The position numbers and the translations under genes are program-made. Shown here piece after piece: positions 28,569-54,303 of a DNA stretch of 64,000 nt. A model generated the notes under the pieces. The model was not told the DNA's origin. It saw nothing but the letters and a program-made list of their open reading frames with translations, and made no database searches. The stretch comes from Candidatus Heimdallarchaeota archaeon (GTDB taxonomy: Archaea > Asgardarchaeota > Heimdallarchaeia > JABLTI01), in contig JABCTZ010000046.1 in the NCBI GenBank assembly GCA_018238155.1, positions 288,001-352,000 of the forward strand. The letters are read 5' to 3'. Positions within the stretch are counted from its first letter, which is position 1. Each line of letters starts with the position of its first letter.

Positions 28569-31500
28569 GTGGTGAGAGATTTGGTCGAAGATCAAAATGT
28601 TAGGAGATTTATGGGAACTCAATTAGTGGAAGAAGAAATTCAAGCTTTAAAACAACTTGAGAATGAAATGAGCAATCCAGTTTTTTTGAGCATCAATATT
28701 GGAAATAAACTAGATGTTGTTATCAAAAAGGATATTAAAAGCAAAATACCTTTTTTGAAAGTTATCACCTTTAAAGTGGAAGGTAATCATGTAACAGATC
28801 TTTATATGAAAAATATTTGGGCGGATAAGATACCCAAATGTATTCTTAAGTTTAAAGAAATCAAATCTATAAGTTTGATACATTTTTCAAAATTAAAATC
28901 ATTTCCTCAAGTGATTTGTTATTTAAAAAAATTAGAAATTCTTTATTTAGAAAAGTGCTCGATAAACGATATCCCCGAAGAAATTGGTGAGCTATCAAAG
29001 TTAAAGAAAATAGTTTTTAAAAATTGCTACAAATTTAGTGAAATTCCTACCAGTTTTGCAAATTTAAAAGAGCTTTATGAATTTAAATCTTTAAACACGC
29101 TTTCAAATAATGAGCAATTTGAACAAATTTTGAAATGTAAAAATATCTCAGAATTATCAATTATTGGCAGCAAAATAGAATCAATTCCAAAATCTCTTTT
29201 CAATCTTCTAAAATTAAGATATCTCAATTTATCTTACAGTAAGATTTCAACATTACCAAGTGCTATCCGAAGGTTGACAAATTTAGAGGAATTAATTCTA
29301 AATAATACCAATTTGAAGAATATACCAGTTGGGATAGGAAATTGCACCAATTTAAGATTATTAAAACTAGATTATAATAAAATAATAAGTGTTCCTGAGA
29401 GTTTATTAAAATTGAAGAATCTTGAGGAAACTCCCACAATAAAAAAATTAAAACAACAGATAACAGGCGAAAAGAAACTAGAAACAAAGCAAGAAGAAAA
29501 AAAATCAGAAGAGAAATCTGAGAAAAGTACAGATACAAAAGTTGGTCTATACATCAAGAAATTAGTTTACAAAGATGAAATACTTGTTTTAGAAGAACTT
29601 GACAAAATGTGTGGAGATAAAATTAGTTTTTTCAAAATTGAAAATTATCACGTTACAATGTTAAGTCTGATGAGGAAAAATTACAACGCTACTCCTCAAT
29701 CATCTCTACCTGAATCAATAGGAAAGTTAGTGGAATTAAAATACTTGAATTTTAGTAAAACTACATTCTCAACCTTGCCAGACAGTATTGGAAATCTTAA
29801 GAAATTAGAGGAATTCAAATTTTCAGAGTCACACATTGAAGAACTCCCAGAGGAAATTTGTCTTTGTAAAGAAATAATGATAATGGAAGCAGAAGAAGGA
29901 AAACTAACTAAATTACCTCAGAATATTGGCAATTTAACAAAATTAACTAGCTTGATTTTGAGTAAAAATGAAATAAACGCTTTACCTGAGAGTATAGGGA
30001 AATTAAAGAACCTTGAAACTTTTCGAATAGATAAAAATCGACTCACAAACCTTCCAAAATCCTTTGCCAATCTTATTCGATTAAAGGAATGCAACTTGGA
30101 AGGAAATACAATTGAAAATATACCTGGTGGTTTTGAACATTTTTCGCAATTGGAGTCACTTCTCCTTATAGGAAATAACATAAAATTCATTTCAAGAAAA
30201 ATAGAGGATTTTGAACAGCTAAAGAAGATTGAAATTGATTATTTGCAATTGAGAGATATAACCGCCTTATTGAGAAAGGATGCTGATGCACAACAAATAT
30301 TGACCAATATTGATCAAATTGCACCAATTTATAAAGATCTTCTGTTAATAGACAAATTGCACCAATCTAAAACTTTGGTTAAAGCAAATTTTAGAAAAAT
30401 CGATATATTAGATAATCAACAATTATTTGAACCTCTTCTCAGAAAAGTAGAAGAAATTGCAAACGATGTGGAAGAATTCAGGAGAATTGATATTTCAGAT
30501 ATCAAGGAAGAGGATAAGGTATTAATTTCTTCATTAATCAAAACTATCACAGAAACTAATCCCAATTTTGTTAGAACTTTAGATGAGAATTTAGTATATA
30601 GTATATCCAAAATAGCCTTTAAAGTTAACTTGAAGAAAGAAGCTGAAGCTCTGAGTAGAGCTGTTTTGCAGAAGAACAACCAAGATGTAAATCATTTAAA
30701 ATTAATTGGTAATTTATTAAATGAGAAAAAACGCTATATTGATGAAGAAAAAGTATATTTAACAGCTCTTCACCATCACACCAATGATTTTAGAATTATT
30801 ACAAATTTAGGAAGTAATTTATTCGCACAAAATAGTAATAATGCAATCGAATCAGAAAAATTGTTTCGAAAAGCTTTAGAGATTAATCCAAAGTATAACA
30901 CTGCTTGGATTAAATTGAGTTCAATTTTGAGAACAAAAAAACAGTTGGAAGAAGCAGAAAAAGCTTGTTTACAAGCAATTCAAAATGATCAAGAGGATTA
31001 TTTTGCATGGAATGAATTGGGAAGAGTATACAAAACCTATTATGATCAATACAGGAAAAAAAGAAATGATGAAACTAGCAAAGAAAAAGTAAAGCAGTAT
31101 CAAGAGAAATTTATGGATGCATTTTGGAAATCCTTGAAAATCAAACCAGATAACCCTCAAGCATTAGCGAATATTGCTCACATACATAGTTCAAGTAATG
31201 AATTTGCCAAAGCAATTAAACTTTATAAAAAGATATTGAAAGTTCAACCTCAAAATTATGGAGCATTGATGAGCCTTTCTATTATCTATATTCAAAAGAA
31301 TGAATTCGATAATGCAGCAACAATGTGTGATGAAGCATTAAAAATTAGACCTGATACAAAGAAAAATCCAATCGTACATCTACTCTTTAGGCAAGGGTAT
31401 GTATTTGAGCCCTTAAAAGAAAATGAGCTAGGTGAATATCACAATATTAAGTTAGCTAAAAATGAAATTCAAAAACTGACTGATATAGAAGAAGTGATAG

Positions 31501-31877
31501 GAGAACCACTTGTTAGAAAAATTTGTGATAGATGGGATTTTACTCGAGTAAAAAAACACTTCTTTGAACGAATAATGGGATCACCCCAAAATGCATCTCA
31601 AGGAAAATTTGTTGAAGGACCAAATTTTGATCTAGAAGATTTTCGTATTAGCTCACTTGATTTGGGTTATTGTAATTTGAGTGATCTACCAGCAAGTATC
31701 GGAAATCTCTATAATTTGAAAAGAATAAATTTAGAGCAGAATAAACTAAAGACCTTACCTAAATCATTTTTCCATATGGAAAAATTGCAAGTTATTCGTT
31801 TAACAAACAATCCTGATTTTATTTTTGATAAGAAAACTAAAAAATTGGAACAAAAGGGATGTGAAATAATAAAATGA
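28569..31877 (+). CDS. LRR-LRR-TPR-LRR repeat protein
   Basis: Many LPxxIGNLxxLxxLxLxxN repeats in three blocks, with a TPR block (ALEINPKYNTAW, IKPDNPQAL, VQPQNYGAL) between blocks 2 and 3. Confidence 0.9.
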   Translation: MVRDLVEDQNVRRFMGTQLVEEEIQALKQLENEMSNPVFLSINIGNKLDVVIKKDIKSKIPFLKVITFKVEGNHVTDLYMKNIWADKIPKCILKFKEIKSISLIHFSKLKSFPQVICYLKKLEILYLEKCSINDIPEEIGELSKLKKIVFKNCYKFSEIPTSFANLKELYEFKSLNTLSNNEQFEQILKCKNISELSIIGSKIESIPKSLFNLLKLRYLNLSYSKISTLPSAIRRLTNLEELILNNTNLKNIPVGIGNCTNLRLLKLDYNKIISVPESLLKLKNLEETPTIKKLKQQITGEKKLETKQEEKKSEEKSEKSTDTKVGLYIKKLVYKDEILVLEELDKMCGDKISFFKIENYHVTMLSLMRKNYNATPQSSLPESIGKLVELKYLNFSKTTFSTLPDSIGNLKKLEEFKFSESHIEELPEEICLCKEIMIMEAEEGKLTKLPQNIGNLTKLTSLILSKNEINALPESIGKLKNLETFRIDKNRLTNLPKSFANLIRLKECNLEGNTIENIPGGFEHFSQLESLLLIGNNIKFISRKIEDFEQLKKIEIDYLQLRDITALLRKDADAQQILTNIDQIAPIYKDLLLIDKLHQSKTLVKANFRKIDILDNQQLFEPLLRKVEEIANDVEEFRRIDISDIKEEDKVLISSLIKTITETNPNFVRTLDENLVYSISKIAFKVNLKKEAEALSRAVLQKNNQDVNHLKLIGNLLNEKKRYIDEEKVYLTALHHHTNDFRIITNLGSNLFAQNSNNAIESEKLFRKALEINPKYNTAWIKLSSILRTKKQLEEAEKACLQAIQNDQEDYFAWNELGRVYKTYYDQYRKKRNDETSKEKVKQYQEKFMDAFWKSLKIKPDNPQALANIAHIHSSSNEFAKAIKLYKKILKVQPQNYGALMSLSIIYIQKNEFDNAATMCDEALKIRPDTKKNPIVHLLFRQGYVFEPLKENELGEYHNIKLAKNEIQKLTDIEEVIGEPLVRKICDRWDFTRVKKHFFERIMGSPQNASQGKFVEGPNFDLEDFRISSLDLGYCNLSDLPASIGNLYNLKRINLEQNKLKTLPKSFFHMEKLQVIRLTNNPDFIFDKKTKKLEQKGCEIIK

Positions 31878-32824
31878 ATAATGACTACGATCTAATAGAT
31901 GAAAGCAAAATCGATTCTGTAGATTATCATTTCATTCAAGATTTTAAACTCTATTTAGGAGAAAATCTACAAAAAAGGCAAATCAAAATTCAGAATGGGA
32001 GAATTGTTAAGATAGATTTATGGCATGAGAAAAAAAGAGGAAATTTTCCGGAAAATATTGGAGATCTAACTGAACTTCTCATTCTAAATTTAGTAAACAT
32101 AGACTTGAAGAATCTACCAGATTCGATTGGAAAATTACTTAATCTTGAGGAAATGAATATCTCATCCAATCATCATATTAGATTATTAGATTCAATTGGA
32201 AATCTAACAAGATTAAAAAAACTCAATATGAGTAGATGTAATCTAACTGAATTACCAAAATCATTTGGAAATTTACTAAATTTAGAATGTCTTAATTTAG
32301 AATTTAATAATTTAAATCAGCTACCAAATAATTTTGGCAATCTACAAAAGTTAGAAATTTTGGATTGTGAAAATAATAAACTAACAACACTCCCTGATTC
32401 ATTTTTTCGATTAAAGAATCTATCACGGTTGAATTTAAGAAATAATCCGTTAAAGGTTCTTTCAAACGAGATTATCAATTTTATAAATTATCGAAAATCA
32501 TTGAACCCAGAGAAATGGATGATTTGTCAATATTGTAAAAGAACAATAACTAATTTTGAAAGAAAAGGTTCAGAACCATGGTGTATTTCGTGTGGCTTGG
32601 ATGATGTCAATGTTTATAACGAATATGGATTCAATCTTCCACCCAATTTACTGAAAGACGAGAATTCCTTGAGTACTAAAGGTATAAAAATTTGCATGTA
32701 TTGTGGAGGTCCTGCAGATTATTTCTGCCCAAAATGTCAAAAAAATGCGATTTGTGAATTTGAGGGTGATTCCTATTGTCCCTACTGTGGAACAGAAGGG
32801 CAATGGGAAGAAATAATCAAGTGA
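31874..32824 (+). CDS. LRR protein with Cys-rich C-terminal zinc-finger-like domain
   Basis: LRR array, then CQYC, CISC, CMYC, CPKC, CPYC; ATGA overlap with the upstream gene. Confidence 0.85.
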   Translation: MNNDYDLIDESKIDSVDYHFIQDFKLYLGENLQKRQIKIQNGRIVKIDLWHEKKRGNFPENIGDLTELLILNLVNIDLKNLPDSIGKLLNLEEMNISSNHHIRLLDSIGNLTRLKKLNMSRCNLTELPKSFGNLLNLECLNLEFNNLNQLPNNFGNLQKLEILDCENNKLTTLPDSFFRLKNLSRLNLRNNPLKVLSNEIINFINYRKSLNPEKWMICQYCKRTITNFERKGSEPWCISCGLDDVNVYNEYGFNLPPNLLKDENSLSTKGIKICMYCGGPADYFCPKCQKNAICEFEGDSYCPYCGTEGQWEEIIK

Positions 32825-32987
32825 ATGGGATTTGCATATATCATTGATTTCAAAAAAAATACTTTATTTGATAAAAAAAGAACATTTAATTTCAAAATTA
32901 ACATTTGTCTAAAAGCAATTTAATACTTGATTAACTTGATTTAAAAAAAATATTTTTTGTAGAAACAATGGATTAATTTTGTAGGAA

Positions 32988-33542
32988 TTGGAATCAATGG
33001 CAGATAATGAAATGAAGAGATTTATTATTATGTTATTAGGTGATAAGTTTGAAGGAGAAAGATCACTTCGAGAGAGAATTGGTGTATCTAATCCTCTCGA
33101 TCAAATAATGTGTGTGGGCGGTTTTTCAACAGCAATTAATATCTTTAAAATCAATAATGAAAAAATCAAATTTGAAATACGAACTGTAAATAGTTCGAAG
33201 TCATTCGAGACTATGAGAAAGACATATTATCCTGGAGCAACTGGAGCAATTCTAGTCTTTGATAATACAAATCAAAACTATACTAGTAACGTACTTGAAA
33301 TGTGGTTAAAAGAACTAAGGGTAGTTAATAGAAAAATGGCTGTAGTTCTTGTTAACAATTTAATAGATAGAGAAGGTAAGGAGTTAATTGTAGATGTTGA
33401 AGAAATGGTTGAGAGACTTTCAATGAAATACAAATTAGAAATTACTGCTTTTGAAATTAAAGCAATCACAACAGAATTTATTGATAAAATATTGCTAACT
33501 CTTGGTGAAAAAATTATTCTACGACAAGAAAAAACCATTTGA
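32988..33542 (+). CDS. Rab/Ras-like small GTPase fold, degenerate (pseudo-GTPase)
   Basis: FETMRKTYYPGATGAILVFDNTN and WLKEL are typical of Rab-like proteins; G1 reads GDKFEGERS, G3 DxxG is absent, G4 reads NNLID. Confidence 0.75.
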   Translation: MESMADNEMKRFIIMLLGDKFEGERSLRERIGVSNPLDQIMCVGGFSTAINIFKINNEKIKFEIRTVNSSKSFETMRKTYYPGATGAILVFDNTNQNYTSNVLEMWLKELRVVNRKMAVVLVNNLIDREGKELIVDVEEMVERLSMKYKLEITAFEIKAITTEFIDKILLTLGEKIILRQEKTI

Positions 33543-33580
33543 ATCTAAAGGTAAACAAATTATTCTTTTATCGAAAAAAG

Positions 33581-33596
33581 AGAAATGCTTAAAACT
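33581..33596 (+). promoter_or_regulatory. Putative BRE/TATA promoter of tRNA-Met
   Basis: AGAAATGCTTAAAA about 40-55 nt upstream of the mature tRNA 5' end. Confidence 0.4.
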
Positions 33597-33635
33597 GAAT
33601 AGGTTAAGAAAAAACCATAACCTCTAGGCAACAAT

Positions 33636-33808
33636 GTCGAGGTAGCTTAGCTTGGTTACGGATGTCCACGCGTGCACGTTCGCCAGAATGGGCGCCTGAC
33701 TCATAATCGAAATCTCACAGTGGCCAGATTTGATGGGACATCAGGAGGTCGCGGGATCGAAAATCCATTAACATTTTTAATGGTTCGGTTTGCCCGCCCT
33801 CGACACCA
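33636..33808 (+). tRNA. tRNA-Met(CAT), elongator type, with three BHB introns (~33658-33688, 33706-33739, 33762-33791) and encoded CCA
   Basis: Acceptor GTCGAGG/CCTCGAC+A+CCA; anticodon arm CCTGA-CTCATA|A-TCAGG; T-arm GCGGG-ATCGAA|G-CCCGC; each insertion folds into a bulge-helix-bulge. Confidence 0.9.
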
Positions 33809-33922
33809 ATTTTCAACTATCTTTTATTATGATTTTCAATGTGTTTACGATTTGAAATTTAAAATCTATTATGTAACATTTTCAAATTCAGCTACCATTT
33901 GGCAAAAAAATCGTATTGTTAG

Positions 33923-35038
33923 CTAATTGAAGAACTCGCATATATCTCTAGTTTTAGTTATACTATCATAAGTTTCATCTAAATCCTCAACGGAGCTTTG
34001 ATAAACATTCTTAGGTAAGATGAAAAATGTATCTTCATTATTTTCAATAATCTGCAATACATAAGAAATCAATTTATCTACTTCAATATTATACATAGAT
34101 CCTCGAGCACCGTAAAAACTACAATTGATAGCACTAAGAGCTTGACCAAACTTTAGAGCATTATCGATTAGGTTTTTGTCAAGATTCTGAATTCCTGCTA
34201 GACCTTTTCTCGCTAATTGATTGATAATTCCAGCAGTACACCAATCTCCAGCACCTGCTGTATCATGTATGTTAGCGATTGGAAAGGACTTAACAAATTG
34301 CCAATTAGAATCTTTTCTTCTATACTTTAAACCATCTGCTCCAAGGGTAACAATTTCGAGATCGGGCAGAGATTTTAGTTCAATTATATCCTCAATAACT
34401 AAATTGGTATCATTTCTCTGATTTGAGTATTTCAGAACATTGCTGAGCTCAATTGCTTTCCTCATTTTTTTTGTATCTTTAACGACTTGAGGTTCAAATA
34501 TTATTAGAGTACCCTCACCAGCAAATTTCTCCGCCATTTTGAGTATACTAGGAGCAATACGATCAAAGTAAAAAACATCGGGAATAGTTTTAATTTTGGG
34601 TAATAAATCACTATATTGTTTTAGCGTTATAGGTTGAAATCTTGGTAAATAATCACCACAAGTTGGACATCTAAAGCTAAAGGAGTGAGTTGGCGGATTT
34701 TTATTTAGATTTATTTTTTCTATCACAACAGGTATTGAGTTTGAATCTGTTCTAACAAGGAAATCCGTTTTCACATTCCATTTTTCTAAATCTTCGAGCA
34801 TTATTTCTACTAAAGGACCTTTACCTAATCTTGCTAACGGATAAGTGTTCCAACCCAAATAGGATAAGATTGTTAGGATATTACCACATGAACCACCAGC
34901 TGCGGTAGAGAATTGTTCTAATGTGGAACCATTCCTCTTATAGATGATATCTAATGCTACTAAACCACTACCATAGATTATTGGTTTTTTTAGTATAGTT
35001 GAATCATCTTGTAAATCATTATTCATAATAACATTCAC
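33923..35038 (-). CDS. PfkB/ribokinase-family kinase with CxxC insertion
   Basis: GSGLVALD, AGGSCGN, VTLGADG, DTAGAGDW; CPTC insert. Confidence 0.88.
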   Translation of the reverse strand: MNVIMNNDLQDDSTILKKPIIYGSGLVALDIIYKRNGSTLEQFSTAAGGSCGNILTILSYLGWNTYPLARLGKGPLVEIMLEDLEKWNVKTDFLVRTDSNSIPVVIEKINLNKNPPTHSFSFRCPTCGDYLPRFQPITLKQYSDLLPKIKTIPDVFYFDRIAPSILKMAEKFAGEGTLIIFEPQVVKDTKKMRKAIELSNVLKYSNQRNDTNLVIEDIIELKSLPDLEIVTLGADGLKYRRKDSNWQFVKSFPIANIHDTAGAGDWCTAGIINQLARKGLAGIQNLDKNLIDNALKFGQALSAINCSFYGARGSMYNIEVDKLISYVLQIIENNEDTFFILPKNVYQSSVEDLDETYDSITKTRDICEFFN

Positions 35039-36173
35039 CCTCTAACCAAATTGCAAAGTGCTCACTTTCAATTTGATTATGATTATCCAGATCTTTGTCT
35101 GTAATATTATAACCTTTTGCTTCAGTATAAGCTATACCAACATTACTTTTATTATTTTCGTGACAAGAGTAAACTGCAAGTAGTGCTCCTAGTGATAAGA
35201 TTTTACTGGATAATGGTGAAATAACAAACTGACAACCTTCTAATAAAGCCAATGTCTTTTCATATTTTCTAATTGTAGCTAAAATTATTCTATATACATC
35301 AAAAGGATCTTGCTCAGCTGCATAGAGAATCTGATCTTTGCTTTTAATTACTTCTTTAAATTCTTTGTAAATATCATCACCTCTTCTTGGGTTTTTAGAA
35401 GGAAAAGGGAGAATATAACAAATATCTTTTGGTGTTATCAGAGAGCTAATTTCATTGTACTGTTCAGTTTTTTGTTCTCCTAAAATTGGAATCCAAATTT
35501 TTGGAATATGATCTTTAGATTGATTTTTCAAATCTCCTTCTAATCCCAACATATATTGAGCTTTTACTACTTCTTTTGGGTGAACACTAATATCATATTT
35601 TGAGCTTTCTGTGATTAGCACAAATAAGTTCTTTTTACTCACATTGTTATTATTGAAATTTTCAACATATTTAAGTAAAATTTGTATTATCGGAAAGTAT
35701 AAAGAATATGGTATTGCACTTATATCAATTAGAATGTCAGAATAATCTTGGTATAAAGTAGGATTAGTAAATAAATTCCTTATATTTTGAGGTCCTGTTC
35801 TTTTTTTCCCAAGATCATCTATTACCATTTCAATTTTCTCTTCTTTTATTTGAATTTCATTTTTCTTGATTAAATCAATTAATCTGTTGTAATTATCAAT
35901 AATTAAATCATCATGTTTATGAGATGGAGAATTAACCCCCTCGTTGTATTCAATTAATAAACATTCCAACTTTCCTTCAAAATTTAAACCTAATATTTTT
36001 TCTAGACCTATGCACATTCTATGATCAAAACCTTTACCTAAAATGAAAAGTATTTTCCTATCATTCTTTTTAAGAAATTCTTCCCAGAAAATATTGAAAT
36101 CTTTGTTTTTACAAATAAAATTGATTGATTCCCACTTATTATTACAGTTCAATATTTCCATTTTCTTAACCAC
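35019..36173 (-). CDS. Uncharacterised double Rossmann-like (CARF-like/inactive PRTase-like) protein of the putative defence operon
   Basis: ILIDISAIP, WIPILGE, LPFPSKNPRRGD, VISPLSSKILSLG; overlaps both neighbours. Confidence 0.55.
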   Translation of the reverse strand: MVKKMEILNCNNKWESINFICKNKDFNIFWEEFLKKNDRKILFILGKGFDHRMCIGLEKILGLNFEGKLECLLIEYNEGVNSPSHKHDDLIIDNYNRLIDLIKKNEIQIKEEKIEMVIDDLGKKRTGPQNIRNLFTNPTLYQDYSDILIDISAIPYSLYFPIIQILLKYVENFNNNNVSKKNLFVLITESSKYDISVHPKEVVKAQYMLGLEGDLKNQSKDHIPKIWIPILGEQKTEQYNEISSLITPKDICYILPFPSKNPRRGDDIYKEFKEVIKSKDQILYAAEQDPFDVYRIILATIRKYEKTLALLEGCQFVISPLSSKILSLGALLAVYSCHENNKSNVGIAYTEAKGYNITDKDLDNHNQIESEHFAIWLEGECYYE

Positions 36174-38103
36174 CTTTCGCTCTTACCGTATATCCATAAT
36201 TTATCCAATTATGCAATGTTCTTAAAGAAACTTCACGATATCCCCCATATTCCAAAGGTAAACCATATTTAACACAAAGTAAACGGTTAAGATATAGTAC
36301 TAACCAATAAGTTCCTTTACACTTAACTTCTCTTTGTTCAAGAATATTACTAACTAAACAGTTATGTAGAACAGTATTTAATTTCTTATCTTCATTTGTA
36401 GAAAGAACATTGTTTCTATTAAGACGTATTGCATCTTTTGAAGAAATCGCAATTCCAGTAACTCCTGGAGCATATGGAGCATTAGGTTTATCTGTTTCAT
36501 ATTTCGATAATTTTCCAATTGCATCAATTAAATTTCGAATTTCTGTCTCAAATGATAAATTTTGAAAATTTCTTTCTAGAAAGTTATTTGATATACCTCT
36601 CAATAAGTTTTCTTGTGTTTTGGGAGAAAGTTTAGTGACCCTAGCTTTCATAAGATTATTTGTTAAAAATGTATCAAAGAGCTTCTCTGAGATATTTAAA
36701 AATTGTTCAATATTATTTGAAGCAACTTGAGATACTTTTTCCAATCCAAAATAATAAGGTATTTTCTCTTCAATTGAAATTTTAAAAGCAGCAGCTTTCC
36801 TAATTGCAGATGATATTTTTCTCATTGGTTTTTCTTCAACTTGAGAATCTATTAAAGTAGTTTGAATTGAACCTCTTATTTTACGATCATATAGAATTTG
36901 AATAGATCTTAATAATATAATTTTCTCAATTAAAGTATCCAAATTATTTTGTTTGTATTTTTTATCTATTAAAGAAATTTGTTCTTTATAAAAATTCATT
37001 AAAGAATCTATGTTTTCAACTTTTGGAAGTATTCGTTTTTTCAAGTTACTAATTATTTCCTTCCATTTTTCTATTGGTAAATTTTCTTGTAAACTTTCTG
37101 AAAATCGAGAAACCAATATGTGTGAAGATTCATTGATTCTTCTATTAGCTATAGATTTTACTAATTTAATAAATGATGACTTATTATTATACCAGTATTC
37201 ATCTAGATTAATTTCAACAAAATCTCTTTCCATTCTTGAATTTCTATTTCGTGTTGATTTGAAAATTTCATCTTTCTGTAATGATTCTATTCTGCTAGAT
37301 AGCCACCAATTACTTGCTCTATTTTTGAGTAGGAAATTTGATAAATTATTGATTTGATTTTTTGATAATGTATCTACTTCGTCTAACATTATTAATACTG
37401 ATTCATATAATTGGTTGCCATTATAAAGAAAGCATTTGGGATTAAATAGGTGAAAAATCTCATGGAAATTTGGTAGATTTATATTTCCGTTCTTTTCATT
37501 ATATCCATAGATGTTTAGATCCAATGTTTGTTTTTCTAATTGTGAGGCCCATGAAAACAATTCTTTACCAGTACAGTTTGTGGGTATTTCACTTTCAGGA
37601 TTCAATTCTGGAATTTTTAAAATCTTAATTTCAGATAAATCATTAGGGTATAATATACCAGCAAATACAGTTAATCCTTTTAGAAAACTAATTACCAATC
37701 TAGCCATTAATAAACTATAAAAAGCACTTATTTTCATATTTTCAGCAAGAATTTGGTTGGTATCAAAAAGATAATAATCAACCATGGATGTGTATATACC
37801 AAGTTTACTAGGTTTGTTATCAAAGATTTGAAAACTATTAACTTTTACATAGAGTTCATTATGAACTTCATTGTGTCTATTTTCAAATAATGTCATTAAG
37901 CTCTCAGGAGTAAACAGCCTTAGAAAAGTTGTTTTCCCGGAACCAGGAAGACTAAGCATTTTTACAGGACTATTCCATAAATGATTTCGATATTTTAATA
38001 GTAAATCTAATGCTTTTGGTTCAAACAAACTTAGAAAAATACTATCATTTATTTTTTTTTCAGATGCTCTATAAGAGAATGGATTTCTTTCATAAACACT
38101 CAT
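36166..38103 (-). CDS. ORC/CDC6-like (STAND-type) P-loop ATPase
   Basis: N-terminal NPF, Walker A SLPGSGKTT, Walker B LIMLDEVD, helical/WH C-terminus ending YLNRLLCVKYGLP. Confidence 0.75.
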   Translation of the reverse strand: MSVYERNPFSYRASEKKINDSIFLSLFEPKALDLLLKYRNHLWNSPVKMLSLPGSGKTTFLRLFTPESLMTLFENRHNEVHNELYVKVNSFQIFDNKPSKLGIYTSMVDYYLFDTNQILAENMKISAFYSLLMARLVISFLKGLTVFAGILYPNDLSEIKILKIPELNPESEIPTNCTGKELFSWASQLEKQTLDLNIYGYNEKNGNINLPNFHEIFHLFNPKCFLYNGNQLYESVLIMLDEVDTLSKNQINNLSNFLLKNRASNWWLSSRIESLQKDEIFKSTRNRNSRMERDFVEINLDEYWYNNKSSFIKLVKSIANRRINESSHILVSRFSESLQENLPIEKWKEIISNLKKRILPKVENIDSLMNFYKEQISLIDKKYKQNNLDTLIEKIILLRSIQILYDRKIRGSIQTTLIDSQVEEKPMRKISSAIRKAAAFKISIEEKIPYYFGLEKVSQVASNNIEQFLNISEKLFDTFLTNNLMKARVTKLSPKTQENLLRGISNNFLERNFQNLSFETEIRNLIDAIGKLSKYETDKPNAPYAPGVTGIAISSKDAIRLNRNNVLSTNEDKKLNTVLHNCLVSNILEQREVKCKGTYWLVLYLNRLLCVKYGLPLEYGGYREVSLRTLHNWINYGYTVRAKGG

Positions 38104-38118
38104 AACTTATTACACCTA

Positions 38119-39246
38119 TCAACCATGTCTAGTAATTCTTGGAAATAATCCTTTAAATTTCAGATAATCATAACTCCAAAGAATAAATATTGAATTGTTC
38201 GGAGTATTGTGATTTAAAATAACAGGTATCGCACATTCAGCAAAACCCAATTTCAGAATTTGCGATCCACCTTTATCTGTATGTTCACTTTGAACAGCTG
38301 GATCATAATAATCATCTTTTAAAATTAAATCATATATTTTTTCCGAATCAGTTATTGTTATATTATCCTCTAAAATCTGAAGTACTTCAATTCTATATTC
38401 GACATTTGGCTTTCTTTTTAACAGCTCTCTCATATATTTGTCTATATGTCTACGTGCTTTATTCGTTGCGATGCACAAAACAATAACTACTAAATATTTT
38501 CTTTGAAAAAAACCCTTGTTCTTTTCTATTACTTTTATTGATTTGGCAATTTTTCCTTTGAATCTTCTTTTTTTCTTGTCAATAAAACTTTTGCCACTTG
38601 CAGTGAAATCATCAAGTAAAAACAGCACTTCAAATCTATTACGTTTTTTTTCCCTTTTAAGCTTCAAATCATTTTCCTCCACAGGAATCTCTAGTAAACC
38701 TTTTTTCAATTCCTTTTGTAAATCTAGACGTTTATCTCTATTGATATAATATATTGAACAAATTTGCTCGTGACTTATTGAATTTTTCTTATTCTCTCTC
38801 CTAAAATCACCCATCATTGATCCATCACTTAGACCCATGAATAAACATTTTCTAAGGAGAATTTTAAAGTAGGGATCACTAATGTGCTGATTAATTAGAT
38901 ACTTGGGTTTTTTATTTCTATCAGCAACAATATCAATTAGTACTGGTAAAATTGACTTGTAGTAAATTAGCGAAACAAGGTGCAATATTTCTTGACGAGA
39001 TATATAGATTAGTTTACTAGTAATGAAGTCATATGAAATCTTCTTATCATTATCATTATTGAACTGATCCAACCAAATTACAAAACTTTCTAAAAATCGC
39101 ATTCCAATTGAGAAGTTTTGATAATTATCATATTTATATTGTGCAATAGCTCTTAATTCTTTAAGCTCATTTGCTATAGAGCTTTCATTCATCCATAAGA
39201 GAGTTTGCTTTAATATTGCTTCTGCGATTTCTTCGTTTATGTTCAA
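38119..39246 (-). CDS. Phosphoribosyltransferase-like protein (conflict-system PRTase type)
   Basis: PRPP-binding loop FLLDDFTASGKS; GF...HNTPNNS...LW...LFPR C-terminal motifs. Confidence 0.75.
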   Translation of the reverse strand: MNINEEIAEAILKQTLLWMNESSIANELKELRAIAQYKYDNYQNFSIGMRFLESFVIWLDQFNNDNDKKISYDFITSKLIYISRQEILHLVSLIYYKSILPVLIDIVADRNKKPKYLINQHISDPYFKILLRKCLFMGLSDGSMMGDFRRENKKNSISHEQICSIYYINRDKRLDLQKELKKGLLEIPVEENDLKLKREKKRNRFEVLFLLDDFTASGKSFIDKKKRRFKGKIAKSIKVIEKNKGFFQRKYLVVIVLCIATNKARRHIDKYMRELLKRKPNVEYRIEVLQILEDNITITDSEKIYDLILKDDYYDPAVQSEHTDKGGSQILKLGFAECAIPVILNHNTPNNSIFILWSYDYLKFKGLFPRITRHG

Positions 39247-39250
39247 TCCC

Positions 39251-41212
39251 TCACTCCATTTTCAAGTTTAAATGAAATGTATTTTCACCGAATATTATTC
39301 TATTTAAGTAAAATAAAGTTATCGGAACTCCTCTATAACCCATTGGTCCCAAATTCCAACAATTGAAAGGGTTTGAAGAAACCTCATCTACACTTAATGA
39401 TAAGTTTCGATTTAATAAATCAAAATCGTTACCATCTATTGAACCTTTATCACCTATGGTCAAAACAGAATGATTTTTAGCCAATGAATTTTGTATTAAA
39501 TCTATAACCACTGTTTTTGTTACAGTTTTTGGTATTATATCTATAGAATGATCTGAAAGTACCATTTTCACTTCTTTATTTTGTCCAAGTTTTGTATTTA
39601 AGTATGAAAATATCGATAACAAATCACTATTTGGAGCTATTATTGTGAGTTGAGTAGGTTTATGTCTTATATCTTTTTCAAATAGACTAAGATATTTATC
39701 ATCACAAAGTAGTTCATTAATTTCATTAACATATGCATTTATTGAAATGTTATCGAAATCAATCTTTTCTGAAAGAAAACCACAAATACTCCCATTATGA
39801 TAACCAACAAAAATTTTCTCATGATATTCCTTTGGAATTTTCTCTATCAAGTCGCGGTTTAGAGAACCTCCTCTACCTGAAGCAATTCCTATCTTGATAT
39901 TATGATCTATTAAATGTAGAAGATTGCTAACAACATCATCAGCGATACCAATTTTTCTTCTTTCAGAGGGACATAATGTGCCATCAAAATCAAAAACTAT
40001 TCCACCGAATTTTTCTTCTGTAAAACTGGCTTGGTAATCATCGAATGATTTTTTCCAAAAATTTCGAACTTGTTTAGTTGAAAAATCAAAATTTGGGAAT
40101 TTTCTTAAAATATATGCTCTATTTGGTTCTTTTCTCCATAATTGATATTTGCTCAATTCTGAAGTTGTTACTGACATTCGATATAGTTTCCTACCAAATT
40201 CAGGAATACCTTGACTTGAAGGGTCAATATTTCTATAAACACCTGCAAGATTTACTAAAAAATATGTTTTTATAAGTAAATCAATAGCTGATAATGGACC
40301 TTCAGAATATTTGGACTTAAAAATGTATTTTGGAATTTTCTCAGGAATTAATGAGAAAGTTCGTTTGAGATTTTTTTCCGATTTTCTATCAGCAAATGCT
40401 AACAAAGAAGATATTTGCCATTTTTTATCAATCCAATTATGTCTTCCATGTCCAAAATTACGATAATCGCTCAGACTAACATTTCCTAATGCTGATTCAC
40501 TATATTTTGATTCCAAATCAATTGCAGCAAATCTACCCCAATTCCCAAATAATACAATAATTGTATCTTTACAAATAATATGCTTCAAATTATTTCTTAG
40601 TGTGTTTTCAAATTCATCAAAATCTTTTGAATCCAAAGCAAACTCATCAAATTCCTTTGGTAGGAAAAGTATTTTCTTATTTGATTTGTAATAAGCTCGT
40701 AGAAATAAAATACTAAATATTAATATAGAATTAACAGCTAGAAAACCATCTTTTTTTGTAGGTAATTTGAAATTAAAATAAGAAATAATTGTGTAATTAG
40801 AGAATTTGGTTATAATAGGTGCATTTGGATTTGCACACACTACAATAATGTGTTTATGCTCTCTTGCTACTGCTTCATTCAAAACGTTAATTATATCAGT
40901 ATTTTTACCAGAAGTTGTAATTAAGATAACAGCTGAATTTGAGGAAGTATTGGTACTAATATAATCCAAAGGTGTCATTGCTTTGGCAATTTGACTTGTA
41001 AATTCACTATGTAATGAAGAAATATAGCTGGCAACTGAATAAGAACCACCAGAACCAATAACAATTAAAGATTCCTCTTTAATCTTCTTAAGATACTTTA
41101 TCAAATTATCAATAGGGTATTTTGTTGCCCAATTATATGCTTTATCCATTTCCTGTAATCTCGTTCTATATTTAGACATTATTAGCACCAAATTTTTTCT
41201 CTCTTCTAGCAC
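39251..41212 (-). CDS. SIS (sugar isomerase) + HAD-IIB phosphatase fusion
   Basis: IGSGGSY and TTSGKNTD (SIS); DYRNFGHGRH; DFDGTL, ASGRG, IGDKG...GNDF (HAD). Start may be ATG 41179. Confidence 0.85.
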   Translation of the reverse strand: MLEERKNLVLIMSKYRTRLQEMDKAYNWATKYPIDNLIKYLKKIKEESLIVIGSGGSYSVASYISSLHSEFTSQIAKAMTPLDYISTNTSSNSAVILITTSGKNTDIINVLNEAVAREHKHIIVVCANPNAPIITKFSNYTIISYFNFKLPTKKDGFLAVNSILIFSILFLRAYYKSNKKILFLPKEFDEFALDSKDFDEFENTLRNNLKHIICKDTIIVLFGNWGRFAAIDLESKYSESALGNVSLSDYRNFGHGRHNWIDKKWQISSLLAFADRKSEKNLKRTFSLIPEKIPKYIFKSKYSEGPLSAIDLLIKTYFLVNLAGVYRNIDPSSQGIPEFGRKLYRMSVTTSELSKYQLWRKEPNRAYILRKFPNFDFSTKQVRNFWKKSFDDYQASFTEEKFGGIVFDFDGTLCPSERRKIGIADDVVSNLLHLIDHNIKIGIASGRGGSLNRDLIEKIPKEYHEKIFVGYHNGSICGFLSEKIDFDNISINAYVNEINELLCDDKYLSLFEKDIRHKPTQLTIIAPNSDLLSIFSYLNTKLGQNKEVKMVLSDHSIDIIPKTVTKTVVIDLIQNSLAKNHSVLTIGDKGSIDGNDFDLLNRNLSLSVDEVSSNPFNCWNLGPMGYRGVPITLFYLNRIIFGENTFHLNLKME

Positions 41213-41299
41213 ATATATTTGATTGTTATTATTAAAACCAATCGAATGTATCCTTGTTTATTTTACTTAAATAGAGCTAATAAAAAATAAAATTAGTGA

Positions 41300-41626
41300 T
41301 TATTTGAAACATCTTTTGAGCTCATTTTCAAATTCACTTGATGATGAAATAATATGAAACATCTCTAATATCCAAGCAATTTCATTTAAATCTTCAAAAG
41401 TGATTTTTTGAGATATCTTAGATAATTCTTCAGAATATTTTGTGAAATTGTTTACTCTAGTTGTTTGTATAGAGTCATAAATAGTTTCTATTAGTTTTAT
41501 CAGACAATCAAAATCTACGTTAGTTTTATTTCGCTGTTTACCGATTATTGATCCTACTGTTTGCCAAATTTCATTGTCTTCAAAAACAGGTTTCTTGTTT
41601 TTGGTTTTGCTGCACCTCTTTCCTTC
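41300..41626 (-). pseudogene. Start-less open frame, probable gene remnant at island junction
   Basis: 108 sense codons (KKPVFEDNEIWQTVGSII...ELKRCFK*) preceded by an in-frame TGA, with no plausible start near the 5' end. Confidence 0.4.
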
Positions 41627-41665: not shown

Positions 41666-43030
41666 TTAGAATAAACAATTATGAATAGCTTTCACTGTTT
41701 CTTTAACATCTTTTCTTCTAACAATAAAATAGTAAGCGATTTCAGATGCTCCTGCGGAAATCATTTCGATATTAATCCCTTTTTGTGCAACTGCTGTAAA
41801 CACATTGGCAGCCATTCCTGAAGTTTTCATTAAGCCCTCTCCAACAATACCAATTAAGCTAATATCCTCCTCCAAAGTGATATTTTGAATAGTATCACCA
41901 ATTAAATCAGTAATAACCTTGTAGCTCTTCTGTGAATCATTTGGATTGATGAGCAAATTAATGCATGTTTGTGAAGTAATAATTGAATAAATATTAACAT
42001 CAATTTTTGCTAATAGATTACCAATATCACCTATGATACCGGGTTTGAATCCAACACCTGGACCTTGAATTCGCAAAACGGCTATATTGTTATTATATGT
42101 TACACTTTTGATAGAAGGTTTGCTCTTTTCAAATTTTGATAATATTATTGTTCCTTCGTTTTGTGGTTGAGAGAAATTACGAATAGTAACATTTATCTTT
42201 GAGTCTATTAAAGGCTCTAAAGCTCTTGGGTGAAGTATTTTCGCTCCAAAATATGCAAGTTCAGCTGCTTCATAATATGATAATTGATTGATTTTCTTTG
42301 CTGTTTTTACTATCGTAGGATCAGCACTCATAAATCCATCAACATTTTTCCAAAGAATGATTGTTTCAGCCTCTAATCCACATGCTACTACTGTGGCACT
42401 ATAATCTGAACCATTTCTACCGAAAGTGGTAATTTTATTATTTTCAGAACAACCAAAATATCCTGTTATAATCGGTGTAATTCCTTTTTGGATTTTAGGT
42501 AGAAGCTTTTGCTTCAAATTCTTCTTTACAACTGAAATATTAGCTGTTGCATTTTCAAAACAGGAATCTGTTATTATTCCTATTGTATCTGCTTCAAAAG
42601 CAAGAGCAACATGATTTTTATCATTTAAAACCCCTGCTAAAAGTATAGCTGCAAGTCTTTCACCAAAACTCAAAATATGCATTTTAACTGAATCTGTCAC
42701 TTCTTCTGTAAATGCTATTCCATAAAGTAATCGCTCTAATTTTACTATTTTGATATCTAAAGTATCAATTACTTCTTGTCTTATGATATCATTAGTGATT
42801 ATTTCATCAGCAAACTCCCTATGCTTTTTTCGGATGTTTTGAATAATTGGTTCAATATTACTTTCAGATTTTTGTGCGAACTCGATACCATTTAGCAATT
42901 CATTTGTAATGCCATTTACTGCAGAGACGACTAACACACAATCATCTTTCTCATTTTTAACTATCTCAACAACTTTCAGGAAATCTGAAACAGAGCATAA
43001 ACACCCACCACCGAATTTCATAACTTTCAA
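41666..43030 (-). CDS. lysC: Aspartate kinase
   Basis: VMKFGG, VVSAVNGITN, SFGERL, TTFGRNGSDYSA, ELAYFGAKILHP, two ACT domains. Confidence 0.96.
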   Translation of the reverse strand: MKVMKFGGGCLCSVSDFLKVVEIVKNEKDDCVLVVSAVNGITNELLNGIEFAQKSESNIEPIIQNIRKKHREFADEIITNDIIRQEVIDTLDIKIVKLERLLYGIAFTEEVTDSVKMHILSFGERLAAILLAGVLNDKNHVALAFEADTIGIITDSCFENATANISVVKKNLKQKLLPKIQKGITPIITGYFGCSENNKITTFGRNGSDYSATVVACGLEAETIILWKNVDGFMSADPTIVKTAKKINQLSYYEAAELAYFGAKILHPRALEPLIDSKINVTIRNFSQPQNEGTIILSKFEKSKPSIKSVTYNNNIAVLRIQGPGVGFKPGIIGDIGNLLAKIDVNIYSIITSQTCINLLINPNDSQKSYKVITDLIGDTIQNITLEEDISLIGIVGEGLMKTSGMAANVFTAVAQKGINIEMISAGASEIAYYFIVRRKDVKETVKAIHNCLF

Positions 43031-43068
43031 TCTAAATCCACCTCTGAAAAACTCAACCCTCTTGTAAT

Positions 43069-44118
43069 TTACTTAAGAAACCCCTCTTGTAAAGCATATT
43101 CAGCATTTAGAATAGATGCTCCCGCAGCACCTCTTAGAGTGTTATGTACTAGCAAGAAGAAATTCACACTAGTACCTTTTCTACGAACACGACCAATTGT
43201 AATTGCCATGCCCAAATTTTTCTCTGTAAGTAAATCACGAGTGGGTTGTGGTCGATCATCCTCAAGTGTGAGTATTATTGGATTCATGGGGGCAGTAGGG
43301 AATGTGTTAGTATCTAATCCATTAAATGATTTGAAGGATTGATTAATTTCTTCCAAAGAAACATCTTCATTAAAATTTACTACAATACTCTCGAGATGAC
43401 CTTCTAAGACAGGAACTCTTGCACAACTTGCATTGATATCAAAATCAGCATCTTGTATCTGCTCACCATCAAATGTTCCAAGTATCTTCTTTGTTTCTAA
43501 CTCCATTTTCTCTTCTTCACCAGATATGAATGGTATGACATTACCTAAAATATCCATGGAAGCAACACCTTTTTTCCCTGCTCCTGAAATAGATTGATAG
43601 GTTGTAACATAAACTTCTCTAATGTTAAATTTTTGAAGTGGACGCAAACCGAATACTAAACCAGAAGTAGAGCAATTTGAATTAGTAACAATGAACCCGG
43701 TACCAAATTTTTGCTTGCCTACTAATTGTAAATGATTGGCATTTATTTCAGGTATCAAAATTGGAACATCAATATCCATTCTGTGAGCATTTGTATTGGA
43801 AAAAACTGCTATGCCTTCTTTTGCCAGATCTATTTCTATATCATAAGCTAATTTGCTAGGAAGTGCACTAAAAACAATATCAAGATTCTCTCGAGATATT
43901 TCTTTGTCCGTATTGTTAACGATAATAGTTTCTCTGACATTTTCAGGAATATCATTTCTCATATACCAATCAACAATCTCACTATACTTTCTCCCGGCAG
44001 ATTTCTTGGAAGCAGTTAAACTAACGATTTCAAAGTGAGGGTGTGAACCTAATAAGCTCACAAATCTTTGACCGACTATTCCGGTAGCACCAAGTATTCC
44101 AATACGATATTTCTTCAT
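43069..44118 (-). CDS. asd: Aspartate-semialdehyde dehydrogenase (archaeal/fungal type)
   Basis: GATGIVGQRF, NSNCST, YQSISGAG, RVPVLEGH, HNTLRGAAG. Confidence 0.97.
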   Translation of the reverse strand: MKKYRIGILGATGIVGQRFVSLLGSHPHFEIVSLTASKKSAGRKYSEIVDWYMRNDIPENVRETIIVNNTDKEISRENLDIVFSALPSKLAYDIEIDLAKEGIAVFSNTNAHRMDIDVPILIPEINANHLQLVGKQKFGTGFIVTNSNCSTSGLVFGLRPLQKFNIREVYVTTYQSISGAGKKGVASMDILGNVIPFISGEEEKMELETKKILGTFDGEQIQDADFDINASCARVPVLEGHLESIVVNFNEDVSLEEINQSFKSFNGLDTNTFPTAPMNPIILTLEDDRPQPTRDLLTEKNLGMAITIGRVRRKGTSVNFFLLVHNTLRGAAGASILNAEYALQEGFLK

Positions 44119-44135
44119 TTTGTTTACTTTTCTCC

Positions 44136-44852: not shown

Positions 44853-44865
44853 GTTCTCATCTCAT

Positions 44866-46218: not shown

Positions 46219-46224
46219 AAAAAA

Positions 46225-47025: not shown

Positions 47026-47034
47026 TTTTTCTAA

Positions 47035-52167: not shown

Positions 52168-52178
52168 TTCATATCCTC

Positions 52179-54257: not shown

Positions 54258-54303
54258 AGAAGCGTTTTTATTGGATTCTATTTATAATATTTTGTGAGAG
54301 TAT

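What the first reader, a model, noticed from the sequence alone, without database searches (positions are those of the whole stretch)
33636..33808. tRNA-Met(CAT) interrupted by three BHB introns
Seen: three insertions, each forming a bulge-helix-bulge. D-loop ~33658-33688 (helix TTGG/CCAG, bulges TTA/AAT; register could shift by 1-2 nt). Canonical 37/38 at 33706-33739 (CTCA/TGGG, bulges TAA/ACA). T-loop 59/60 at 33762-33791 (ATCG/CGGT, bulges AAA/TTG). Removing them gives a normal cloverleaf with CCA. Established: triple-intron tRNAs are rare, best known from Thermoproteales, and need a broad-specificity splicing endonuclease. Standard pipelines may miss this gene (the ORF track puts a spurious ORF on it). 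The spliced T-loop starts with A54 (ATCGAAG) instead of T54. Inference: introns at the T-loop may block integration at this tRNA or be scars of it.
Basis: seen in the sequence. Interest (0 to 1): 0.75.

Follow-up and report, generated by a model that had tools for sequence, protein, structure and literature searches.

The report
Three-intron methionine tRNA gene, Heimdall archaeon
This is a real, working-looking gene for the ordinary (elongator) methionine tRNA of a Heimdall-group Asgard archaeon, cut into four pieces by three small enzyme-spliced introns. It is a clean new example of something already described in Asgard archaea, not a new kind of thing.

Summary
Observation confirmed at the stated coordinates. 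Removing 33658-33688, 33706-33739 and 33762-33791 turns an unrecognisable 173-nt stretch into a 78-nt cloverleaf tRNA(CAU) with encoded CCA. ARAGORN and Rfam both miss the unspliced gene. Each insert sits in a bulge-helix-bulge: a 4-bp helix between two 3-nt bulges.

Seven orthologues in the same family keep all stems (97% of cells paired, six compensatory pairs). Five of them lack the T-loop insert and read exactly the predicted spliced junction, so that intron is a recent gain shared only with one sister species.

- Other Heimdall families have only the 37/38 intron, so the count rose 1, then 2, then 3.
- The assembly holds a separate initiator, a separate Ile2-like tRNA(CAU) and TiaS. That makes this the only elongator Met found.
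- It also encodes a two-subunit EndA with the L1/Crenarchaea-type loop, and RtcB.

Multi-intron Asgard tRNAs are already published (2024 paper, 2026 preprint). This scan has already reported the 180-nt orthologue in the sister genome with the same verdict. The idea that the T-loop intron blocks or scars integration is not supported. A54 is real, is the only such T-loop found in this genome, and is conserved in four Heimdall families.

The parts
33554..33635 (+). Conserved upstream region (likely promoter and 5' leader). It contains an A/T-rich TTAAAA box about 42-47 nt before the gene.
   Evidence: Homology with the sister genome starts at 33554 and with other relatives about 70-80 nt upstream, while the genes further upstream differ. 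The promoter role is inferred.
33636..33657 (+). Exon 1: acceptor 5' strand, U8-A9, D-stem 5' strand and the D-loop up to ...GGUU.
33658..33688 (+). Intron 1 (31 nt) in the D-loop, about position 20a/21. It is a relaxed BHB of the HBh' type: H TTGG/CCAG, bulges TTA/AAT, inner helix 7 bp, no contiguous outer helix.
   Evidence: H is paired in 28/28 cells, with 3 of 4 pairs varying. Present in all 7 family-f1 orthologues and absent in families f2, f5 and f7.
33689..33705 (+). Exon 2: U21(?), D-stem 3' strand, G26, anticodon stem 5' strand, and loop C32-U33-CAU-A37.
33706..33739 (+). Intron 2 (34 nt) at the canonical 37/38 site. It is a strict hBHBh': H CTCA/TGGG, bulges TAA/ACA.
   Evidence: Present in every Heimdall orthologue examined, including other families.
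33740..33761 (+). Exon 3: A38, anticodon stem 3' strand, variable loop AGGUC, T-stem 5' strand, T-loop A54-U55-C56-G57-A58-A59.
33762..33791 (+). Intron 3 (30 nt) in the T-loop at 59/60. It is a strict hBHBh': H ATCG/CGGT, bulges AAA/TTG, hairpin ATCCATTAA/TTAATGGTT.
   Evidence: This BHB is part of the minimum-energy and centroid folds. It is an exact 30-nt indel against five orthologues that read ...GGGATCRAAGCCC.... Shared only with genome G009.
33792..33808 (+). Exon 4: G60, T-stem 3' strand, acceptor 3' strand, A73, encoded CCA (33806-33808).
33810..33813 (+). T-run directly after the CCA, a likely archaeal transcription stop. Homology with relatives ends here.
   Evidence: Sequence. The alignment with G009 ends at 33813. 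The terminator role is inferred.

Best explanation
This is the functional gene for the elongator tRNA-Met(CAU) of a Heimdallarchaeia (Asgard) archaeon. It is transcribed as a precursor of about 173 nt plus flanks. Three bulge-helix-bulge introns are cut out of it by the genome's two-subunit (alpha-beta)2-type splicing endonuclease EndA. The cut falls after the second nucleotide of each 3-nt bulge. The four exons are joined, presumably by RtcB, into a 78-nt tRNA.

The introns accumulated stepwise. The 37/38 intron is old and class-wide. The D-loop intron arose in the ancestor of this family. The T-loop intron arose recently, in the common ancestor of this genome and one sister species.

- Shown: gene anatomy, conservation, the junction of the T-loop intron, and the presence of the enzymes.
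- Inferred: actual cleavage and ligation, the exact D-loop junction, and charging with methionine.
For: 1. Removing the three inserts gives a canonical cloverleaf that ARAGORN calls tRNA-Met(cat). An independent genome-wide scan recovers the same boundaries.
2. Seven complete orthologues from the same family all give a 78-nt mature tRNA. Compensatory changes occur in the acceptor stem (A:U to G:C), the anticodon stem (two pairs) and the T-stem (C:G to G:C). Overall 97.4% of cells are paired and 6 pairs changed on both sides, reached by 0/500 shuffles.
3. Five orthologues lack the T-loop insert and read GCGGGATCGAAGCCCGC or ATCAAAG. That is the predicted ligation product, and the indel is exactly 30 nt.
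4. The BHB central helices are kept: 28/28 cells for the D-loop intron and 27/28 for the anticodon intron. The inner helix of the D-loop intron shows a G:C to A:U double change.
5. The enzymes are present. EndA alpha (197 aa) has the Tyr-His-Lys triad and a Lys aligned to A. pernix Lys44 in the CSL/L1 loop, with best PDB hits to crenarchaeal alpha subunits at E 5e-36. A second paralogue lacks the His. RtcB is present.
6. Identity. [quoted passage not shown] A separate tRNA(CAU) is 78% identical to tRNA-Ile(GAU), and TiaS is present. That leaves this gene as the only elongator Met found.
7. Orthologues in families f2, f5 and f7 carry only the 37/38 intron.
Against: - No RNA data, so splicing is not observed.
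- The D-loop BHB has no contiguous outer helix (relaxed type).
- Canonical cutting would leave U at position 21, where the relatives without a D-loop intron have A21.
- In the global minimum-energy fold of the whole precursor, only the T-loop BHB appears. The three-BHB cloverleaf is about 10 kcal/mol above the MFE, although the D-arm and anticodon-arm BHBs are at or near the local optimum.
- The assembly is 90.7% complete, so another tRNA-Met copy cannot be excluded.
- tRNAscan-SE was not available.
Confidence: 0.9

Rival explanations
1. The gene is the minor isoleucine tRNA (tRNA-Ile2, CAU modified to agmatidine by TiaS) and not elongator tRNA-Met.
For: The anticodon is CAT and TiaS is present in the genome. 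Sequence alone cannot fully separate Met from Ile2.
Against: - Another tRNA(CAU) at G000:C21:101013-101152 is 78% identical to tRNA-Ile(GAU). It shares the GGGCC acceptor, the D-arm and the GGCUxAUAACC anticodon arm. This gene is only 67% identical.
- The anticodon arm here reads GACUCAUAAUC. From my own knowledge that is the usual elongator-Met form.
- Without this gene the assembly has no elongator Met.
Confidence: 0.06
2. The gene is a decaying pseudogene or a relic of integration, with three chance insertions that are never removed.
For: Both flanks of the gene are variable among relatives. Standard tools do not recognise it.
Against: - Exons are conserved in 7 species with compensatory stem changes.
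- Insert boundaries coincide with strict 4-bp/3-nt BHB geometry.
- It is the only elongator Met in the assembly.
- The upstream 80 nt and the T-run are conserved.
Confidence: 0.02
3. The gene is functional, but the D-loop insert is cut in a register 1-2 nt different from the one stated, or through a non-canonical bulge. The mature D-loop would then differ from AGCUUGGUUU, for example by keeping an A at position 21.
For: - Relatives without the D-loop intron have ...GGYUA with A21.
- An alternative 4-bp helix shifted by one (UGGU/GCCA) also passes my BHB rule.
- The outer helix is missing.
Against: - Pair 17:51 covaries (U:G, C:G, U:A), which fits the stated register.
- The third base of the 5' bulge varies A/U among orthologues, as expected for intron sequence.
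- The third base of the 3' bulge is an invariant U.
- The same cutting rule is confirmed at the T-loop intron in this gene.
Confidence: 0.15

Closest known systems
Multi-intron tRNA genes of Asgard archaea (Valentin-Alvarado et al. 2024, PMC11291895; Goswami et al. 2026 preprint, 10.64898/2026.10.13.758758)
   Same: - BHB introns at canonical and non-canonical sites, with several per gene.
- D-arm introns that annotators miss.
- T-arm introns with clear canonical BHBs.
- Repeated, often terminal-branch gains.
- Two EndA paralogues in most genomes.
   Different: Those studies focus on Atabeyarchaeia, Freyrarchaeaceae and Jordiarchaeaceae. [quoted passage not shown] This is a three-intron gene in a Heimdall genome where roughly half the tRNA genes have one intron, and it is the only three-intron case my scan found.
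Three-intron tRNA genes of Thermoproteales (Sugahara et al. 2008, as cited)
   Same: Up to three BHB introns per tRNA gene, relaxed BHBs at non-canonical sites, and an (alpha-beta)2 EndA with the Crenarchaea-specific (L1) loop.
   Different: A different phylum. There, related intron sequences recur between genes, which is read as transposition. Here no paralogous copy of any of the three introns exists in the genome.
The 180-nt orthologue in the sister genome G009 (locus L002), already reported by this scan (e1-5382794)
   Same: Same gene and same three intron positions, 93% identity. The T-loop intron differs at 4 positions.
   Different: The anticodon intron is 41 nt instead of 34 nt. The flanking genes are entirely different: malic enzyme upstream, and a small ORF plus a CBS protein downstream.
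T-loop of eukaryotic initiator tRNA-Met (A54, A58, A60; PMC7912444, PMC7566577)
   Same: A54 in place of U54, A58, and a purine at position 60 (AUCGAAG here; exactly AUCGAAA in Heimdall genome G016).
   Different: Here it sits in the elongator (G1:C72, no GGG/CCC in the anticodon stem). The genome's initiator has the ordinary UUCGAAU loop.

Membership tests
Archaeal bulge-helix-bulge (BHB) tRNA intron | A 4-bp central helix flanked by two 3-nt bulges on opposite strands | tested here: met
   All three inserts have 4/4 central pairs and 3-nt bulges.
Archaeal bulge-helix-bulge (BHB) tRNA intron | At least one flanking helix (outer h or inner h') | tested here: met
   - 37/38 intron: outer 5 bp plus an inner helix.
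- 59/60 intron: outer 5 bp plus an inner hairpin.
- D-loop intron: inner 7 bp only, so a relaxed HBh'.
Archaeal bulge-helix-bulge (BHB) tRNA intron | Cutting after the 2nd base of each bulge restores a functional cloverleaf | tested here: met
   The 78-nt product is called tRNA-Met by ARAGORN. The T-loop junction is identical to intron-less orthologues. The D-loop junction is not independently confirmed.
Archaeal bulge-helix-bulge (BHB) tRNA intron | Structure maintained in evolution | tested here: met
   97.4% of cells paired against 31-48% when slid. Six pairs changed on both sides.
Archaeal bulge-helix-bulge (BHB) tRNA intron | Excision and ligation observed in RNA | not testable with these tools
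   No transcript data are held.
Elongator tRNA-Met | CAU anticodon in a 7-nt loop with U33 and A37; A73 | tested here: met
   Loop CUCAUAA after splicing; discriminator A.
Elongator tRNA-Met | Lacks initiator marks (A1:U72, three G:C pairs at 29-31:39-41) | tested here: met
   G1:C72 and anticodon stem CCUGA/UCAGG. The initiator marks are on another gene, at C7:363895-363973.
Elongator tRNA-Met | Distinct from tRNA-Ile2(CAU) | tested here: met
   The tRNA(CAU) on contig C21 is 78% identical to tRNA-Ile(GAU); this gene is 67% identical. TiaS is present. This rests on sequence similarity only.
Elongator tRNA-Met | Charged by MetRS | not testable with these tools
   Needs biochemistry.
(alpha-beta)2 EndA with L1/Crenarchaea-specific loop | Two paralogous subunits, each with N- and C-terminal EndA domains | tested here: met
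   PF01974 and PF02778 both hit at C24 (197 aa) and at C17 (193 aa).
(alpha-beta)2 EndA with L1/Crenarchaea-specific loop | One subunit with the Tyr-His-Lys triad and the other without it | tested here: met
   The C24 protein aligns ...FAVYH...DHSPY...SVRKK... with A. pernix and S. tokodaii alpha. By eye, the C17 protein has no His at that place.
(alpha-beta)2 EndA with L1/Crenarchaea-specific loop | L1/CSL insert with the conserved Lys | tested here: met
   GIRKPQG aligns without gaps to A. pernix VEKPRG (Lys44 by my count) and S. tokodaii ISKPKS. Kaneta et al. 2018 report L1 throughout Asgard. The role of Lys44 is from my own knowledge.
(alpha-beta)2 EndA with L1/Crenarchaea-specific loop | Heterotetramer assembly and cleavage of relaxed BHBs | not tested
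   No complex prediction or assay was run.

The most novel reading that the evidence does not exclude
The A54 (A54-A58, purine-60) T-loop of this tRNA is not an accident. It may be a class-wide identity mark of Heimdallarchaeial elongator tRNA-Met, for example one that separates it from the initiator, or from tRNA-Ile2, for a factor or a modification enzyme.

The T-loop form it uses is one that reviews treat as special to eukaryotic initiator tRNA and to some eukaryotic tRNA-Ala, and that one analysis says is not observed in archaeal tRNAs. If it is functional, Asgard archaea already used the purine-purine 54-58 T-loop as a discriminator before eukaryotes did.
Probability: 0.25. Interest if true: 0.55.

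Novelty: new member of a known kind. Interest (0 to 1): 0.3.

Why it matters
- **Annotation.** ARAGORN and Rfam both miss this gene, so the genome would appear to lack an elongator tRNA-Met and a spurious ORF would be called in its place.
- **Evolution.** The locus gives a dated series within one lineage. One intron is class-wide, two are family-wide, and three occur in two sister species. Intron-less alleles give the exact junction of the newest intron. That is useful material for the open question of how BHB introns arrive.
- **Limits.** It adds a Heimdall-group example to a phenomenon documented mainly in other Asgard classes. It does not change what is known about how such introns are removed.

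Tried and rejected
- **Intron transposition.** blastn-short of each intron with its BHB context against the whole genome gave only the self hit and chance 12-18-nt matches. There is no evidence for copying between genes.
- **Integration scar.** No second copy of the tRNA 3' end (17 nt, up to 3 mismatches) is present in the window. The cassette 3' of the gene is bounded only by a weak CACCAA(A)TTTT repeat.
- **Synteny search.** The downstream PfkB-like protein found no relative in genome contigs. tblastn of the flanking Ras-like, LRR and PfkB proteins against the relatives' loci found nothing.
- **C/D-box guide RNA in the conserved anticodon intron.** I considered this and dropped it. The intron is only 34-41 nt, and its conserved part is explained by the BHB strands.
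- **Global fold of the precursor.** The MFE does not show all three BHBs (z = -1.9). I therefore did not use thermodynamics of the whole molecule as evidence.
- **MAFFT alignment at the T-loop.** MAFFT misplaces the T-loop gap by four columns. The T-stem counts therefore rest on two sequences for three of the pairs. I parsed the exons directly instead.
- **tRNAscan-SE 2, SPLITS and R2DT.** None of these was available.

Full report
**What is there**

The stretch 33636-33808 is a GC-rich island (about 50% G+C) in DNA of about 25-30% G+C. It begins with GTCGAGG and ends with CCTCGAC-A-CCA, a perfect 7-bp acceptor stem with discriminator A and an encoded CCA.

Standard tools see nothing here:
- ARAGORN finds no tRNA in the whole window.
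- Rfam finds nothing at gathering score, and no tRNA match even at E<=10 on this 600-nt stretch.
- RF00005 over the whole genome gives 35 tRNAs but not this one.
- A mechanical 84-aa ORF (33672-33926) overlaps the gene.

**Check of the three inserts**

Deleting 33658-33688, 33706-33739 and 33762-33791 gives a 78-nt sequence that ARAGORN folds as tRNA-Met(cat). If the D-loop or the T-loop insert is left in, ARAGORN finds nothing. If only the 37/38 insert is left in, ARAGORN reports it as an intron.

Each insert has the archaeal splicing motif. In strand order this is an outer helix, a 4-bp helix, a 3-nt bulge, an inner helix, the 4-bp helix again, a 3-nt bulge and the outer helix again.

| Intron | Central helix | Bulges | Flanking helices |
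|---|---|---|---|
| D-loop | TTGG/CCAG | TTA/AAT | 7-bp inner helix, no contiguous outer helix (relaxed type) |
| 37/38 | CTCA/TGGG | TAA/ACA | anticodon stem outside |
| 59/60 | ATCG/CGGT | AAA/TTG | T-stem outside, 9-position hairpin inside |

I looked for 7-bp acceptor pairs followed by N-CCA (172 regions), enumerated all BHB-like introns inside them, built every combination of up to four (231,927 variants), and ran ARAGORN. All 80 hits lie at tRNA loci, and the solution for this region is exactly the three stated introns.

Folding results:
- The T-loop BHB is part of both the minimum-energy and the centroid fold of the whole precursor.
- The D-arm BHB is the local optimum, and the anticodon-arm BHB is within 0.6 kcal/mol of it.
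- The global MFE does not show all three, so I give whole-molecule thermodynamics little weight.

**Comparative evidence**

BLAST of the 173 nt against 60 relatives found the gene in 8 of 10 genomes of the same genus and in the one genome of a second genus of the family. No convincing match was found in other families. Seven complete copies could be extracted. All give a 78-nt mature tRNA.

The stems carry compensatory changes:
- acceptor 5:68, A:U to G:C;
- anticodon stem 27:43 and 29:41;
- T-stem 50:64, C:G to G:C;
- the D-intron inner helix, G:C to A:U.

On the alignment, 97.4% of pair cells are paired, against 31-48% when partners are slid by 1-3 columns. Six pairs changed on both sides, which none of 500 shuffles reached. 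The D-intron central helix is paired in 28/28 cells with three of four pairs varying. The anticodon-intron helix is paired in 27/28 cells.

The strongest single result concerns the T-loop intron. Five orthologues have no T-loop insert and read GCGGG-ATCGAAG-CCCGC (or ATCAAAG). That is exactly the product predicted by cutting after the second base of each bulge, and the indel is exactly 30 nt. Only this genome and G009 carry the T-loop intron. G009 is 93% identical over the gene, and its neighbouring malic enzyme is 97% identical in protein.

**History of the introns**

A pattern search for the T-arm across the class, followed by inspection, found the elongator tRNA-Met of three other families (G032, G016/G026, G051). 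These have only the 37/38 intron and an uninterrupted D-loop, AGC(C)UGG(Y)UA. The introns therefore accumulated in steps:
1. 37/38, class-wide;
2. D-loop, family f1;
3. T-loop, two sister species.

No paralogous copy of any of the three introns exists in the genome, so there is no sign of transposition between genes. This agrees with the 2026 preprint, which reports many gains, 71 of 129 on terminal branches, and no general route of arrival.

**Open point: the D-loop junction**

Canonical cutting gives a mature D-loop AGCUUGGUUU, with U where the relatives lacking a D-loop intron have A21.

The stated register is supported by three observations:
- covariation at pair 17:51 (U:G, C:G, U:A);
- an invariant U as the third base of the 3' bulge;
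- an A/U-variable third base of the 5' bulge.

A one-base-shifted helix also passes my BHB rule. Only RNA sequencing can settle this.

**Which tRNA it is**

The assembly has three tRNA(CAU) genes.
- C7:363895-363973 has A1:U72 and GGG/CCC in the anticodon stem. It is the initiator.
- C21:101013-101152 has two introns of its own, at 37/38 and in the T-loop. It is 78% identical to tRNA-Ile(GAU), with the same acceptor start, D-arm and anticodon-arm context. It is the Ile2 candidate. TiaS is encoded.
- The window's gene has G1:C72 and anticodon arm CCUGA-CUCAUAA-UCAGG, and is 60-67% identical to the others. It is the only elongator Met candidate in an assembly that is 90.7% complete.

**The enzymes**

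Two EndA paralogues are present, each with both Pfam domains.
- The 197-aa protein on C24 matches crenarchaeal catalytic alpha subunits best (2cv8, 3p1z_B, 3ajv_B; E about 1e-35). It keeps Tyr, His and Lys of the triad.
- Its segment GIRKPQGDEFDRP aligns without gaps to the Crenarchaea-specific (L1) loop. That includes the Lys that is Lys44 in A. pernix by my count.
- The 193-aa protein on C17 lacks the His. It is therefore the structural beta.

This is the (alpha-beta)2 type with L1. Kaneta et al. 2018 assign that type to Asgard and link it to relaxed-BHB cleavage. RtcB is present.

The closest EndA loci in public genomes are titled Candidatus Heimdallarchaeota archaeon. The neighbouring LRR and Roc/Ras-type GTPase genes fit Asgard.

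**The integration idea**

Compared with the sister genome G009, this genome has three extra blocks around the gene:
- 28407-33553, the LRR/GTPase cluster, between degenerate copies of a roughly 30-nt segment;
- 33814-41296, the five-gene cassette, starting 5 nt after the CCA;
- about 41682-54978, the methionine operon.

Homology to every relative covers only about -80 to +5 of the gene, so the locus is a hotspot for gene gain.

- The T-loop intron is shared with G009, which lacks the cassette, so the intron is not a scar of that insertion.
- The insertion happened in a lineage that already had the intron.
- No tRNA-derived repeat longer than CACCAA(A)TTTT bounds the cassette.

One observation keeps the protection idea alive, but only as a single anecdote. 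In G006, which has no T-loop intron, a 55-nt diverged copy of the gene's 3' half lies 1.8 kb downstream. It runs from the end of the anticodon intron to the CCA, and an MBL-fold gene lies between it and the tRNA gene. This looks like an old attachment-site pair whose core spans the place where the intron sits here.

**A54**

The gene's T-loop is AUCGAAG. Every other tRNA recovered in this genome has UUCRAAU or a close variant with U54. A54 is kept in the elongator Met of four Heimdall families, and in G016 the loop is exactly AUCGAAA. A strict pattern found A54 T-arms in 20 of 400 Asgard genomes, including tRNA-Ile(GAU) and probably tRNA-Thr(GGU) in another family.

Reviews call A54 special to the eukaryotic initiator (PMC7912444). 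One analysis states that the A54/A58 pair is not observed in archaeal tRNAs (PMC7566577). I did not take this further.

**Verdict**

The kind of thing is already published:
- multi-intron tRNA genes in Asgard, with D-arm introns missed by annotators (PMC11291895; 10.64898/2026.10.13.758758);
- (alpha-beta)2 EndA with L1 in Asgard (PMC5829648).

This scan has also already reported the 180-nt orthologue in the sister genome, with the same conclusion (e1-5382794), and the two-intron orthologues in three other genomes. I rate it a new member of a known kind, of modest interest. The useful extras are the dated 1-2-3 intron series and the A54 note.

Noticed in passing
window 33756-33761 plus 33792; loci L022, L023, L043 (Met), L044 (Ala-UGC), L025-L027 (Leu-UAA), L050 (Arg-CCU), L053-L061: A54 (with A58 and often a purine at position 60) replaces the near-universal U54 in the T-loop. 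It is the only such tRNA found in this genome. It is conserved in the elongator tRNA-Met of four Heimdall families and scattered in other Asgard elongator tRNAs. The literature calls A54 a eukaryotic-initiator/tRNA-Ala feature not seen in archaea.
   Followed up: partly
G000:C21:101013-101152 and downstream to about 102478 (outside the window): An Ile2-like tRNA(CAU) with two introns (37/38 and T-loop). It is followed by two partial tRNA 3'-end copies, at about 101230-101262 (Ile-GAU-like) and 102443-102478 (an intron-less copy of its own 3' end). About 1.2 kb lies between them. This looks like nested integration sites.
   Followed up: partly
window 28407-33553, 33814-41296 and about 41682-54978: Relative to the sister genome G009, three blocks are extra here: the LRR/GTPase cluster, the five-gene PfkB-to-SIS cassette, and the methionine operon. 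All lie around the tRNA gene. The malic enzyme (26955-28406), a small ORF (41297-41585) and a CBS protein (54979-55851) are the shared backbone.
   Followed up: partly
window 28378-28406 and 33560-33590: Degenerate direct copies of a roughly 30-nt segment (...TTATCAAnAAAAnGAGAAATnGC) bound the 5.1-kb LRR/GTPase insertion. G009 has one copy.
   Followed up: no
window 33803-33813 and about 41186-41198: A weak repeat, CACCAA(A)TTTT(TT), sits at both ends of the 7.5-kb cassette. It includes the last six bases of the tRNA. It is too short in AT-rich DNA to count as an attachment site.
   Followed up: no
L012:1497-1556 (G006, 1.8 kb downstream of its tRNA-Met): A 55-nt diverged duplicate of the 3' half of the tRNA-Met gene, running from the end of the anticodon intron to the CCA. 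Its T-loop is damaged (AUAAAAG). A metallo-beta-lactamase-fold gene lies between it and the tRNA gene. It is likely a remnant of an element integrated into this tRNA.
   Followed up: partly
G000:C17:19555-19699(-), C27:544-680(+), C39:112824-112958(+), C20:5620-5725(-): Other tRNA genes with non-canonical introns were found by my scan. ARAGORN missed the last three and parsed Asp as a single long intron.
- Asp-GUC: two introns.
- Phe-GAA: D-loop plus 37/38.
- Cys-GCA: 37/38 plus a second intron nearer the 3' end.
- His-GUG: D-region intron.

Trp, Lys-UUU, Leu-UAA and Pro-CGG were still not found.
   Followed up: partly
G000:C46:4-219(-): A third EndA N-terminal-domain fragment (77 aa open) sits at the end of a 2.5-kb contig. 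It could be a duplicate, a strain variant or contamination (the assembly is rated 5.9% contaminated).
   Followed up: no
window 33672-33926 (+): An 84-aa GTG-start ORF runs through introns and exons of the tRNA gene into the spacer. Its downstream part (past 33813) has no counterpart in the relatives' loci, so it is an artefact of mechanical ORF calling.
   Followed up: yes
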